DNA of 64,000 nucleotides from Escherichia coli. Lineage in GTDB: Bacteria > Pseudomonadota > Gammaproteobacteria > Enterobacterales > Enterobacteriaceae. Location of the stretch: NCBI RefSeq assembly GCF_017348835.2, contig NZ_CP071375.1, one strand, 5' to 3'. Position numbers: made by a program. Positions within the stretch are counted from its first letter, which is position 1, and every line of letters starts with the position of its first letter. Below, piece after piece: positions 12,001 to 15,000 of the stretch.

Positions 12001-15000
12001 TGGAGATAAATGCACCGGCAGCATAATAAAAAAAGAGCCAGCGACTGACCTGAAAGAAGACGCTGGCTAAAAGGCCTTATATGTTTGTAGAGACTTATTT
12101 TTCACAGACAGCAATGATGCCTGTCAATATATTATCAATATGCGGATTGTTTCAGTTACAGATGCTTTATTAAGGAAAAAAACAGCCAGCACTGACTTTC
12201 GGTGGAGAGGTGCTGGCTCAGAAGGATAGTTGGATTTCACATGATACTTATGTCTGGCGGTATATTTTCTGACAGACAGTGACGGATGTTGTCAAGATAT
12301 TGTGTCATTTATAACCTGAACCAGGGGGGCCGGAATGTTATCTGGCATTTTTAGCAGAGCCTGAATGCCATAATCACGGCTCCCGGAGTTGGCCGTCAGT
12401 GGGTGACACTGGCGGCTTTTTGTTTTCCTTTACTTTCATTTTCTGTCGGCGGTGACGGAGACATACATCAGATGGAAAAAATCACAACAGGTGTGTCATA
12501 CACCACGTCAGCGGTAGGGACGGGATACTGGTTACTGCAACTGCTGGACAAAGTCTCTCCGTCCCAGTGGGTGGCAATAGGTGTACTGGGGAGTCTGCTG
12601 TTTGGCCTGCTGACGTATCTGACTAACCTGTATTTCAAAATCAGAGAGGACCGGCGTAAGGCGGTGCGGGGAGAGTAAAGTGATGAAGAAAAAATACGAA
12701 CTGGTTGTTAAAGGGATAAATAATTACCCGGATAAGATTACTGTTACTGTGGCACTGGAAATTGGTGGGTATCCGTCACTGTTGTTGCCAGATGTGGCGA
12801 TTAGTCTTGACCGTACTGAAGGTGCCACGCTGGAGTTTTACGAAGCTGAGGCGAAAAAGCAGGCGAAGCAGTTTTTCATGGATGTTGCTGCCGGGTTATG
12901 TGAAGGGGATGGTCCGTTGCCGGAAAAGCGGCCCATCATTTTAGAGGCGCAGGATGTGTTGATAACCTACAGAGGAAAACTACCGGGAATAATTACTGGT
13001 TCTCTGAAGACTCCACCGCTGGCCTGAAGACTTAACATATCCAGGGATTTGAAATCGATAAATCCTGATAAATATCCATGAACGCAAAAATCAGATACGG
13101 CCTGTCGGCTGCCGTTCTGGCGCTGATTGGTGCAGGGGCGTCTGCGCCTGAAATCCTCGACCAGTTTCTGGATGAAAAGGATGGTAACCACACCACAGCA
13201 TACCGTGATGGTACGGGTATCTGGACCATCTGCCGCGGTGCCATCCTGGTGGATGGTAAACCTGTCGTCCCGGGCATGAAGTTGTCGAAGGAAAAATGCG
13301 ACCAGGTTAACGCCATTGAGCGTGATAAGGCGCTGGCATGGGTGGAGAAAAACATCAAAGTGCCGCTGACCGAACCCCAGAAAGCGGGGATCGCGTCATT
13401 CTGTCCGTACAACATTGGTCCCGGTAAGTGTTTCCCGTCGACGTTTTACAGACGAATTAATGCAGGTGATCGCAGGGGAGCATGTGAGGCGATTCGCTGG
13501 TGGATTAAGGACGGTGGCAGAGACTGCCGTATTCGCTCAAACAACTGCTACGGTCAGGTCTCACGGCGTGACCAGGAGAGCGCGCTGGCGTGCTGGGGAA
13601 TTGACAGATAAGAAGAATATTTTGCTGAAAAATGAGGTTTGCTTACATGGACGGATAACACGAAATCCTGCAAATTGGCAAAATGTAAGTGAATAAAGTT
13701 AAAACAGTTGTTTAACACTCAGGCACCGTAATGATGCCTTTGTCATTTCTGCGCATCTCACGCGCATCTCACAACACAGAACCTTTCAGGATGACCCTTG
13801 AGGATACCGGTTTGGCTGTGCCTTTCTGTGGGCTGGATTCCTGTGAGACAAGGTTCATCACTAAAAGGAAATAACCGATGAATATGATGGCCGTGCCGTT
13901 TTATGTAGTTAACCATAATGGCGAACCATACGTTCCCATGAAACCTGTCGTTGCGGGGATGGGGCTGGCCTGGCAATCACAGTTGGCTAAGTTAAGACAG
14001 CGTTTTGCGTCAACTATAACGGAAATCGTTATGGTTGCTGAGGATGGGAAACAACGCAATATGGTGTCCATGCCACTTCGAAAACTTGCCGGCTGGCTAC
14101 AAACCATTAATCCCAACAAAGTAAAACCCGAAATCCGCGATAAGGTCATCCGGTATCAGGAAGAGTGCGACGATGTTCTTTACGAGTACTGGACGAAGGG
14201 TTTTGTCGTTAATCCCCGTAAAATGAGCGTGATGGAAGAACTCAACCAGGCTTGTGCTGACATGAAACGGGATAAAAACATTGCCAGTGTGTTTGCTACC
14301 GGGCTGAATGAGTGGAAACAGGTTAAAGCCGCGCATGTATCAAAAATCCGTACGCTGGTAAATGAAGCGAATATGCTGATTGATTTTGTCCTGGCTGATA
14401 CAGGCAAAGGGAAAATAACAAAGGCGGATTGATGGGGTGGCTAATGATATCAGATAAACTCATAACGCTGGTGAAGAGCCTCTGTGTACTTGTCGGCATT
14501 TCATTTTTAGTCATGCTGGTTGCCATTTTCTTTTCCACCGCCTGGCGAGTCCTGACGTTATCGGGACTGGTGGGGTGAAAGAGAGATGAACCGTGTTCTG
14601 TGTGTGGTGATTATTGTCCTGGCGGTTGGCTGTGGTGCGCTGTGGCTGGCAACAAACCATTACCGTGACAACGCGCTCACCTACAAAGCGCAGCGCGATA
14701 AAAAAGCCAGAGAGCTGGAACAGGCGAATGCCACCATTACTGACATGCAGGTGCGCCAGCGTGATGTTGCTGCGCTCGATGCAAAATACTCGAGGGAGTT
14801 AGCCGATGCGAGAGCTGAAAATGAAACTCTGCGTGCTGATGTTGCCGCTGGTCGTAAGCGCCTGCGGATCAACGCCACCTGCTCCGGTACCGTGCGTGAA
14901 GCCACCGGCACCTCCGGCGTGGATAATGCAACCGGCCCCCGACTGGCAGACACCGCTGAACGGGATTATTTCATCCTCAGAGAACGGTTGATGACAATGC

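What the first reader, a model, noticed from the sequence alone, without database searches (positions are those of the whole stretch)
12027..12295. Two paralogous terminator-bounded minus-strand modules between nanS-p and the holin gene
The 445-bp gap between nanS-p and the holin gene contains two tandem units with the same architecture when read on the minus strand. Each has a consensus TTGACA, then N17 containing the shared block CTGTCTGT, then an A-rich -10-like stretch, ~50-70 nt of diverged sequence, and a GC-rich hairpin with shared arms (AGCCAGC.../...GCTGGCT) followed by exactly T7. They run antisense to the late operon and hold no plausible ORF. This looks like a duplicated small-RNA gene pair (~70 and ~90 nt), or like decoy/roadblock elements convergent with late transcription. 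I do not recognise them.
Basis: seen in the sequence. Interest (0 to 1): 0.6.

Follow-up and report, generated by a model that had tools for sequence, protein, structure and literature searches.

The report
Known prophage sRNA PasA plus tandem paralog
The two minus-strand modules between the prophage esterase gene and the holin gene are already-catalogued Hfq-binding small RNAs (PasA and the RNA listed as EcOnc51/52); the only new point is that they form a tandem pair of diverged paralogs, which the literature has not said.

Summary
The similarity of the two units is far beyond chance (glocal z about 10, 0 of 3000 shuffles).

Unit B (RNA 12260-12176, minus strand) is PasA. PasA is an 85-nt, Hfq-dependent, northern-validated sRNA of EPEC E2348/69. 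The published PasA probe matches window 12185-12209 exactly.

Unit A (about 12094-12028, minus strand) is 100% identical to the Hfq-CRAC peaks EcOnc51 and EcOnc52 of E. coli O157 Sakai. It corresponds to the region whose terminator ends the "minor 236-nt" PasA form.

A covariance model built only from PasA/PasC-type RNAs finds unit A at 33 bits (E about 3e-4). The terminator helix shows three compensatory pairs. PasC looks like a unit-B 5' part joined to a unit-A-type terminator.

The pair occurs in about 670 of 5426 complete E. coli genomes, in E. albertii, and in phages H-19B, 434 and Stx1a phages.

The sRNA-pair reading is supported. The roadblock reading is not.

The main open question is whether unit A is transcribed from its own promoter or only by read-through from PasA. 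The 2026 Pas survey describes PasA/PasD copies as distal and likely not from tandem duplication, so the tandem paralogy is a small addition to a known system.

The parts
12176..12260 (-). Unit B RNA: PasA-type sRNA, 85 nt
   Evidence: The published PasA northern probe matches 12185-12209 exactly. Covariance model R1 scores 110 bits over exactly 12260-12176. It is 75/85 identical to E2348/69 PasA; all 10 differences lie in nt 1-40 and the 3' 45 nt are identical.
12265..12295 (-). Unit B promoter-like block: TTGACA (12295-12290), 18-nt spacer ending CTGTCTGT, then CAGAAA (12271-12266)
   Evidence: Pattern hit. The PasA 5' end published for E2348/69 (743499) maps to window 12260, 6 nt after the hexamer. 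That this is the promoter is inferred.
12184..12218 (-). Unit B terminator hairpin. Its 5' arm holds the published PasA seed GCCAGCACCU. It is followed by T7 at 12182-12176.
   Evidence: Fold. Covariation over 43 variants: 95.9% of cells paired and 3 compensatory pairs. Seed from PMC8550237 Fig. S5.
12028..12094 (-). Unit A RNA: diverged tandem paralog of PasA, about 67 nt. Equals EcOnc51/EcOnc52 of O157 Sakai and the region whose terminator ends the 236-nt 'minor PasA' form.
   Evidence: The window sequence is contained 100% in both EcOnc peaks once coordinates are anchored by CLASH read sequences. R1 scores 33 bits, E about 3e-4. RIL-seq RNA2 fragment at 743267-743294.
12099..12127 (-). Unit A promoter-like block: TTGACA (12127-12122), 18-nt spacer ending CTGTCTGT, then GAAAAA (12103-12098)
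   Evidence: Pattern hit. Kept exactly in 69 of 70 tandem partners found through unit B. Kept in stand-alone copies in Sakai Sp4 and on plasmids. Function inferred.
12036..12068 (-). Unit A terminator hairpin (AGCCAGCG / CGCTGGCT), followed by T7 at 12034-12028, two bases from the esterase stop codon
   Evidence: Fold z = -3.75. Covariation. Annotated as a minus-strand terminator in phage 434.
11994..12004 (+). CTGGTGCTGGA inside the esterase 3' end; complementary to the PasA seed core CCAGCACC
   Evidence: Motif located. The same site in both E2348/69 esterase genes is listed among the PasA RIL-seq targets used for the motif.
10176..12026 (+). nanS-p-like SASA esterase gene (left neighbour; part of the late operon)
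   Evidence: ORF. Annotated as SASA family carbohydrate esterase in the E2348/69 homologue.
12472..12678 (+). Class II holin gene (right neighbour)
   Evidence: ORF. Annotation of homologues.

Best explanation
The intergenic region carries two tandem small-RNA genes that are diverged paralogs. Both are transcribed on the minus strand, convergent with the prophage late operon.

Unit B is PasA, here in a variant whose 5' 40 nt differ from the EPEC type. Unit A is the RNA catalogued as EcOnc51/EcOnc52.

Each unit has four parts:
- a perfect -35 (TTGACA)
- an 18-nt spacer ending in TGT, followed by a weak A-rich -10
- a short variable 5' body
- a conserved intrinsic terminator with U7, which serves as the Hfq-binding 3' module

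In lysogens the RNAs accumulate on Hfq and act in trans by short base-pairing with mRNAs. The pairing region includes the 5' arm of the terminator stem: GCCAGCACC in PasA, GCCAGCGUC in unit A and PasC. The two RNAs should therefore have different target sets.

Some polymerases read through the PasA terminator and stop at the unit A terminator, giving the 236-nt form.

Shown by published experiments on near-identical copies: RNA sizes, Hfq dependence and Hfq binding, and chimeras with targets.
Shown here: identity, paralogy, the conserved helix, and distribution.
Inferred: the promoters, independent initiation of unit A, and seed use by unit A.
For: Identity of unit B:
- PasA probe matches exactly.
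- The locus architecture is the same as E2348/69 PP2.
- CM scores 110 bits.

Identity of unit A:
- It equals EcOnc51/52.
- RIL-seq lists 'pasA.E2348C_0688.IGR' with a U7 tract and 5 interactions, as the sRNA partner (RNA2) in all of its chimeric fragments. One example is escD with the RNA2 fragment at 743267-743294.

Paralogy: shuffle tests. A CM built without any unit A sequence finds unit A at 33 bits; the next hit scores 17.6.

Structure: 9-bp helix, 95.9% of cells paired, compensatory C-G/U-A, G-C/A-U and C-G/U-G/U-A; slid controls give 21-49% paired.

For independent expression of unit A:
- its own promoter block is retained in 69 of 70 tandem partners
- stand-alone copies keep the promoter block (Sakai Sp4 behind IS629; plasmids)
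- the EcOnc51/52 peaks start 1-3 nt after the -10 hexamer
- Tree et al. list no peak at the PasA position of Sp12

Distribution: 698 of 5426 complete E. coli genomes, 29 phage records, and E. albertii.
Against: - No transcription-start data were available for this window's strain.
- The -10 hexamers are weak (3 of 6, no T at position 6), and the generic promoter scan does not call them.
- One RNase E-CLASH read covers unit A's own spacer and -10 (TCATTGCTGTCTGTGAAAAATAAGTC). So some RNA crosses that promoter, either by read-through or from an upstream start.
- Pearl Mizrahi et al. interpret the unit A region as the 3' part of a minor 236-nt PasA form.
- The Sakai copies of unit A are identical, so the Sp4 peak may come from multi-mapped reads.
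- The promoter invariance in my 43-variant set is partly circular, because those loci were collected with the promoter pattern.
- A seed inside a terminator stem is unusual; Zhu et al. note this themselves.
Confidence: 0.8

Rival explanations
1. There is one gene, not two. Only PasA is initiated. Unit A is a degenerate duplicate whose terminator acts as a back-up stop for PasA read-through, so the unit A RNA seen on Hfq is the 3' end or a processing product of the 236-nt transcript.
For: - Pearl Mizrahi et al. report a major end at 743415 and a minor end at 743264 for a single PasA start.
- A CLASH read spans unit A's spacer and -10.
- The -10 is weak.
Against: - Unit A keeps a perfect -35 and the shared spacer block in 69 of 70 tandem partners, and in stand-alone copies lacking unit B.
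- The EcOnc51/52 peaks are 77-78 nt and begin just after the -10.
- Sakai Hfq-CRAC lists unit A but no peak at PasA in Sp12. That is hard to explain if unit A RNA were only a minority read-through product.
Confidence: 0.3
2. The main role is in cis. Both RNAs are perfectly complementary to the nanS-p-to-S intergenic part of the Q-antiterminated late transcript. They, or their convergent transcription, would modulate processing of the late mRNA or holin expression, and so lysis timing.
For: - Geometry: the units are antisense to the late operon and lie 210-445 nt upstream of the holin start.
- The junction is conserved next to holin and lysozyme in hundreds of prophages.
- A different convergent sRNA module occupies the same spot after the esterase gene in Sakai Sp6.
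Against: - No data link them to lysis.
- Published data show many trans partners on Hfq in uninduced lysogens.
- Copies persist where the holin is gone (Sp4, plasmids).
- PasC-type loci delete one unit without disturbing the junction.
Confidence: 0.1
3. The modules are decoy or roadblock elements, or simple terminators that protect nanS-p from antisense transcription, and their RNA products have no function.
For: Two strong minus-strand terminators are annotated as such in phage 434. The last one lies 2 nt from the esterase stop codon.
Against: - The hairpins have no T-run on the plus strand, so they cannot stop late transcription.
- The RNAs are among the most connected accessory sRNAs in RIL-seq and are destabilised in an hfq mutant.
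- The seed and helix are conserved with compensatory changes.
Confidence: 0.05

Closest known systems
PasA (pathogenicity-associated sRNA A; EPEC E2348/69 prophage PP2; Pearl Mizrahi et al. 2021, PMC8550237)
   Same: Unit B has the same position, strand, promoter block, terminator, seed and length (85 nt). The probe site is identical and the 3' 45 nt are identical.
   Different: Ten substitutions in nt 1-40. This fits the description of the variant Zhu et al. call PasA-2, but I could not see that sequence.
EcOnc51 / EcOnc52 (Hfq-CRAC peaks in O157 Sakai prophages Sp12 and Sp4; Tree et al. 2014, PMC4104026 Table S2)
   Same: Unit A is 100% identical to both peaks over 12094-12028. A Rho-independent terminator is flagged for them in that table.
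   Different: They were only predicted sRNAs; the northern column is empty. Later they were cited as 'homologues of PasA', although they are the downstream paralog and not PasA itself.
PasC (E2348/69 prophage PP5)
   Same: It has the same promoter and 5' body type as unit B and a terminator of the unit A type (AGCCAGCG...CGCTGGCT). It abuts the esterase stop as unit A does. One tandem locus (L072) carries a unit A with exactly the PasC terminator.
   Different: PasC is a single unit per locus. The PasC probe does not match the window within 3 mismatches. The recombinant origin is inferred, not shown.
Tandem sRNA paralogs such as OmrA/OmrB or PrrF1/PrrF2
   Same: Adjacent genes on the same strand, each with its own promoter and terminator, with conserved ends and a diverged middle.
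   Different: The resemblance is one of organisation only, with no sequence relation. Independent initiation of unit A is unproven. Zhu et al. explicitly contrast PasA/PasD copies with this class.
AgvB / AsxR anti-sRNAs (Rfam RF02702, RF02703)
   Same: Short Hfq-binding prophage sRNAs that are convergent with the late operon in the moron region. An AgvB copy lies 2 kb upstream in this window, at 10028-9967.
   Different: No Rfam hit in 11800-12700 even at E up to 10. Sequence, size and junction all differ.

Membership tests
PasA sRNA (applied to unit B) | Sequence: carries the site of the published northern probe and aligns full-length with E2348/69 PasA | tested here: met
   Probe GCCAGCACTGACTTTCGGTGGAGAG matches 12185-12209 with 0 mismatches. 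75/85 identity. CM scores 110 bits.
PasA sRNA (applied to unit B) | Context: lambdoid prophage, between the SASA esterase and class II holin genes, antisense to both ('> < >') | tested here: met
PasA sRNA (applied to unit B) | Rho-independent terminator with a U-tract, and the published seed GCCAGCACCU in its 5' arm | tested here: met
   Fold. Helix covariation. Seed from the paper's Fig. S5, present at 12217-12208.
PasA sRNA (applied to unit B) | Hfq-dependent accumulation and Hfq-mediated RNA-RNA interactions | not testable with these tools
   Published for the E2348/69 copy only.
PasA/PasC family (applied to unit A) | Detectable homology of the RNA to PasA/PasC-type RNAs | tested here: met
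   A CM built from 27 PasA/PasC-type RNAs, with no unit A sequences, scores 33 bits (rough E 2.8e-4); the next window hit scores 17.6 bits. Part of the score comes from PasC terminators.
PasA/PasC family (applied to unit A) | Shared promoter block and shared terminator helix | tested here: met
PasA/PasC family (applied to unit A) | Being PasC itself (PasC probe site) | tested here: not met
   The PasC probe has no match within 3 mismatches. Only the terminator arm and the flank are shared.
PasA/PasC family (applied to unit A) | A separate primary transcript (own transcription start) | not testable with these tools
   Indirect evidence only: EcOnc51/52 peak boundaries and stand-alone copies. 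Against this stands a CLASH read that crosses the promoter.
AgvB / AsxR anti-sRNAs and Esr41 (Rfam RF02702, RF02703, RF02676) | Match to the Rfam covariance model | tested here: not met
   No hit in 11800-12700 at E up to 10. AgvB is found elsewhere in the window. Esr41 is encoded on SpLE1.

The most novel reading that the evidence does not exclude
The PasA locus is really a two-gene tandem array of independently transcribed paralogs with different seeds (GCCAGCACC against GCCAGCGUC). PasC is a recombinant that joins the 5' part of one unit to the terminator of the other. If so, unequal recombination between the two units is a way for prophages to shuffle 5' bodies and seed-bearing terminators. 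The published count of Pas-family genes would then miss roughly one gene per PasA locus. A further possibility is that both RNAs also act in cis on the late transcript upstream of the holin gene.
Probability: 0.5. Interest if true: 0.35.

Novelty: already known. Interest (0 to 1): 0.25.

Why it matters
These RNAs belong to the Hfq network of EPEC and EHEC, with RIL-seq partners that include LEE and bfp genes. Correct annotation therefore matters for virulence-regulation studies.

The practical gain here is a clarification:
- the Sakai peaks EcOnc51/52 are not PasA but its downstream paralog;
- the 'minor 236-nt PasA' ends at that paralog's terminator;
- the paralog is present at hundreds of loci that the 2026 survey counted as single-gene loci.

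If unit A is independently expressed, lysogens carry a second regulator with a different seed at each such prophage.

Nothing here changes how sRNAs are understood to work.

Tried and rejected
- Rfam, gathering thresholds over the whole window and E up to 10 over 11800-12700: no family covers the region.
- Esr41/EcOnc14 was my first guess from memory. It is rejected because it is encoded on SpLE1.
- AgvB/AsxR membership is rejected.
- The generic promoter scan does not call the TTGACA promoters. It offers a different weak site instead, at 12155-12126 on the minus strand.
- A single local alignment of the units picks up only the 22-nt terminator match and is borderline (1 of 2000 shuffles). Separate-half and glocal tests were needed.
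- RNAduplex between the sRNAs and the esterase 3' end was uninformative; the energies were no better than for shuffled targets.
- The genome-contig scan with the promoter pattern gave only E. albertii plus about 14 matches in unrelated taxa, roughly my chance estimate of about 13.
- Full-text searches for EcOnc51/52 and for the RNA sequences found no further papers.
- I could not read the PasA-2, PasA-3 or PasC variant sequences of Zhu et al., because they are given only in figures.
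Full report
**Observation**

The region lies between a 616-aa nanS-p-like esterase ORF (10176-12026, +) and a class II holin gene (ATG at 12472).

Read on the minus strand, two units share one plan.

- Unit A has TTGACA at 12127-12122 and CTGTCTGT at 12111-12104. It then has an A-rich stretch, about 30 nt of body, the hairpin AGCCAGCG...CGCTGGCT (12068-12036) and T7 at 12034-12028.
- Unit B has TTGACA at 12295-12290 and CTGTCTGT at 12279-12272. Its body is about 45 nt, its hairpin is AGCCAGCAC...GTGCTGGCT (12218-12184), and its T7 is at 12182-12176.

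The composite promoter pattern occurs twice in the window and in none of 100 shuffles.

The similarity is not chance. The promoter halves and the terminator halves each beat all 5000 dinucleotide shuffles. A collinear (glocal) alignment scores 74 against 21.9 +/- 5.2, with 0 of 3000 shuffles reaching it. A single local alignment alone was only borderline.

Both RNAs fold with the terminator hairpin. No credible ORF is present.

The generic promoter scan does not call the sites, because the -10 hexamers are weak. The best geometry is a perfect -35, then an 18-nt spacer ending in TGT (an extended -10 motif), then CAGAAA (unit B) or GAAAAA (unit A). This geometry is read from the sequence; promoter function is inferred.

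**What it is**

Rfam has no family here, even at E up to 10. It does find STnc100 (9774-9966, +) and AgvB (10028-9967, -) just upstream of the esterase gene.

The literature gave the answer. Pearl Mizrahi et al. 2021 (PMC8550237) described five prophage sRNAs of EPEC E2348/69. Their Table S6 gives these details for PasA:
- it is on the minus strand between E2348C_0688 (esterase) and E2348C_0689 (holin), written '> < >';
- it starts at 743499, with a major end at 743415 (85 nt) and a minor end at 743264 (236 nt);
- the northern probe is GCCAGCACTGACTTTCGGTGGAGAG.

That probe matches window 12185-12209 with no mismatch. Aligning the window with E2348/69 PP2 shows the same two-unit architecture. 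Unit B is 75/85 identical to E2348/69 PasA. All ten differences lie in nt 1-40 and the last 45 nt are identical.

The published 5' end maps to window 12260, six bases after the proposed -10. The published minor end is the unit A terminator. The paper reports northern sizes matching the RNA-seq prediction, loss of stability without Hfq, and many RIL-seq partners.

**Unit A**

Pearl Mizrahi et al. merged the region downstream of PasA ('pasA.E2348C_0688.IGR') into PasA. Yet their Table S5 lists it with a U7 tract and five interactions, and it is the sRNA partner (RNA2) in all of its chimeric fragments. One example is escD with the RNA2 fragment at 743267-743294, which is the unit A terminator.

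Their note says the EHEC homologues are EcOnc51/EcOnc52 of Tree et al. 2014. Tree's Table S2 lists EcOnc51 (Sp12, 2237479-2237555, +) and EcOnc52 (Sp4, 1181998-1182075, -). Both are flagged as having a Rho-independent terminator, and neither has a northern result.

Sakai coordinates changed between genome versions, so I anchored them with read sequences from the RNase E-CLASH supplement of Waters et al. (PMC5286369). The shift is +136 at Sp12 and +1 at Sp4. After correction both peaks are unit A:
- EcOnc51 = AAGUCUC...U7 AUUAUGCU
- EcOnc52 = GUCUC...U7 AUUAUGCUGCC

Window 12094-12028 is contained in both at 100% identity. So EcOnc51/52 are not PasA but its downstream neighbour. No EcOnc is listed at the PasA position of Sp12, although PasA is present there at 109.7 bits.

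**Family membership of unit A**

I built a covariance model from 27 distinct PasA/PasC-type RNAs, all behind the unit-B type promoter, with no unit A sequences. With filters off on the window it gives:
- unit B: 110 bits
- unit A: 33 bits (rough E 2.8e-4)
- next best hit: 17.6 bits

The same model finds both units in E2348/69, phage 434, H-19B, Sakai Sp12 and E. albertii. It finds unit A alone in Sakai Sp4 and on a plasmid.

**Comparative data**

The 445-nt region hits 698 of 5426 complete E. coli genomes, at 3309 places with a median of 5 per genome. In 670 genomes one place covers at least 80% of the query, meaning both units.

It also hits 29 phage records: H-19B, 434, YYZ-2008, 2B8 and many Stx1a-converting phages. 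The curated phage 434 record annotates two minus-strand terminators exactly at these sites, plus a plus-strand terminator before the holin gene. It annotates no RNA gene.

Scanning viral contigs with the promoter pattern returned more than 120 stretches. In the 130 sequences then held (129 loci plus the window), the architectures were:

| Architecture | Count |
|---|---|
| Tandem, unit B then unit A, 167-169 nt apart | 77 |
| Unit-B-type promoter alone | 44 |
| Unit A alone | 8 |

Most of the 'alone' unit-B-type copies abut the esterase stop.

The species-representative genome scan found only E. albertii plus roughly the number of chance matches I had estimated. This agrees with the Escherichia/Shigella range reported by Zhu et al..

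**Structure**

I aligned 43 distinct units. In the 9-bp terminator helix, 95.9% of cells pair. Three positions show changes on both sides: C-G/U-A, G-C/A-U and C-G/U-G/U-A. No shuffle reached the covariation score, and slid controls gave only 21-49% pairing.

The invariance of the promoter in this set is partly circular, because the loci were collected with the promoter pattern. A less biased check used tandem partners found through unit B. Of 70 such partners, 69 keep the exact unit A promoter pattern. The most diverged one (L103) keeps TTGACA and CTGTCTGT while its RNA body has changed at five positions.

**PasC**

In E2348/69 PP5 the locus has a single unit. It has the unit-B type promoter and 5' body, and its terminator is AGCCAGCGUCC...GGGCGCUGGCU, next to the esterase stop. 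One tandem locus (L072) has a unit A with exactly that terminator.

PasC therefore looks like a unit B 5' part joined to a unit-A-type terminator. The likely route is recombination in the shared CYTTTNAGCCAGC stretch. This is an inference, because the junction is not a clean concatenation.

A further variant (AGCCAGUAC...GUACUGGCU) exists both as a single unit and in tandem.

**How it works**

The best-supported mechanism is the published one for PasA: an Hfq-dependent, trans-acting, base-pairing sRNA expressed from the prophage in lysogens.

The reported seed is GCCAGCACCU, the 5' arm of the terminator stem. Zhu et al. call this placement unusual.

The target list includes the 3' end of the neighbouring esterase gene itself (CUGAUGCUGGA or CUGGUGCUGGA). 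That motif is at window 11994-12004.

Unit A and PasC carry GCCAGCGUC at the same place, so they should have different partners (inferred).

**Whether unit A is a separate gene**

This is the main open point.

Evidence for a separate gene:
- it has its own promoter block;
- stand-alone copies keep that block (Sp4 behind IS629; plasmids);
- the EcOnc peaks start just after the -10;
- Sakai has a peak for unit A but none for PasA.

Evidence against:
- the -10 is weak;
- Pearl Mizrahi et al. interpret the region as read-through;
- one CLASH read (TCATTGCTGTCTGTGAAAAATAAGTC) crosses the unit A spacer and -10;
- the Sakai copies are identical, so reads multi-map.

I put independent initiation at about 0.55-0.6.

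**Rivals**

A pure roadblock or decoy role is unlikely. The hairpins lack a T-run on the plus strand, and the RNAs have trans partners on Hfq.

A cis-antisense role on the late nanS-p-to-S transcript is geometrically possible and untested. In Sakai Sp6 a different convergent module occupies the same spot after the esterase gene (TTGACA-N17-TTAAAA ... GCCGCCGG/CCGGCGGC-T7). It is probably EcOnc33, which gave an RNA of about 71 nt on a northern blot. So the junction is a recurrent site for such genes.

**Novelty**

PasA and EcOnc51/52 are already in the literature, so the finding is known.

What I did not find stated anywhere is that the two form a tandem pair of paralogs. [quoted passage not shown] They report a minimum inter-copy distance of 22.5 kb and say Pas genes are typically single within a prophage.

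This is a modest correction and extension, not a new kind of element.

The window itself is 99.9% identical to a prophage of E. coli PE164 from pig.

Noticed in passing
window 12391-12425 (+): A plus-strand terminator-like hairpin (GGCCGTCAGTGGGTGACACTGGCGGCT followed by TTTTTGTTTT) sits about 45 nt before the holin start. It is conserved in E2348/69 PP2 and PP5 and is annotated as a terminator in phage 434. RIL-seq lists a plus-strand RNA from this intergenic region ('pasA.E2348C_0689.IGR') in chimeras with PasB. It could stop non-antiterminated transcription before the lysis genes.
   Followed up: partly
window 9774-10028: A convergent pair of known prophage sRNAs lies just upstream of the esterase gene: STnc100 (9774-9966, +, 145.8 bits) and AgvB (10028-9967, -, 96.5 bits). 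The esterase gene is therefore flanked by convergent sRNA genes on both sides.
   Followed up: partly
L145 about 2692-2807 (-) = NC_002695.2 about 1557191-1557306 (Sakai Sp6): A different minus-strand module directly follows the esterase stop in a 933W-type late region: TTGACA-N17-TTAAAA, about 80 nt, then GCCGCCGG...CCGGCGGC and T7. The PasA/PasC model does not hit it. It is probably EcOnc33 (about 71 nt on a northern blot), and so a positional analogue.
   Followed up: partly
L006 4000-4151 (plasmid pRM10386-2, NZ_CP028124.1) and about 100 other plasmid places: Unit A occurs alone, with its promoter block intact and a G-U wobble in the stem, on 83-98 kb E. coli plasmids (strains including O26). 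It lies next to an 87-nt remnant of the esterase gene and IS elements. This is many more plasmid copies than the 12 Pas hits reported by Zhu et al.
   Followed up: partly
L007 2131 (Sakai Sp4); L108, L109 and L082 in the viral contigs: IS629/IS3-family elements (and one unidentified insert) interrupt the units at several different points: 26 nt upstream of the unit A -35, inside the unit A body, and inside hairpins. This produces terminator-less copies that may correspond to 'PasA-3'.
   Followed up: no
window 12126-12155 (-): The generic scan calls a weak promoter-like site (CTGAAA-N18-TATATT) just upstream of unit A, overlapping its TTGACA. A start there would give an RNA of about 92 nt. It could also explain the CLASH read that covers the unit A spacer without invoking read-through.
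   Followed up: no
window 5170-5344 (+) and 8752-9001 (+): A sok antitoxin RNA (hok/sok-type locus; 113.5 bits) and two tRNA genes lie in the same prophage region.
   Followed up: no
L035, L058, L077, L079 (viral contigs): In four contigs PasA is followed, after CCTTAATAAAGCATCTGTAACTG, by unrelated sequence instead of unit A and the esterase gene. This is a further recombination breakpoint between the two units.
   Followed up: no
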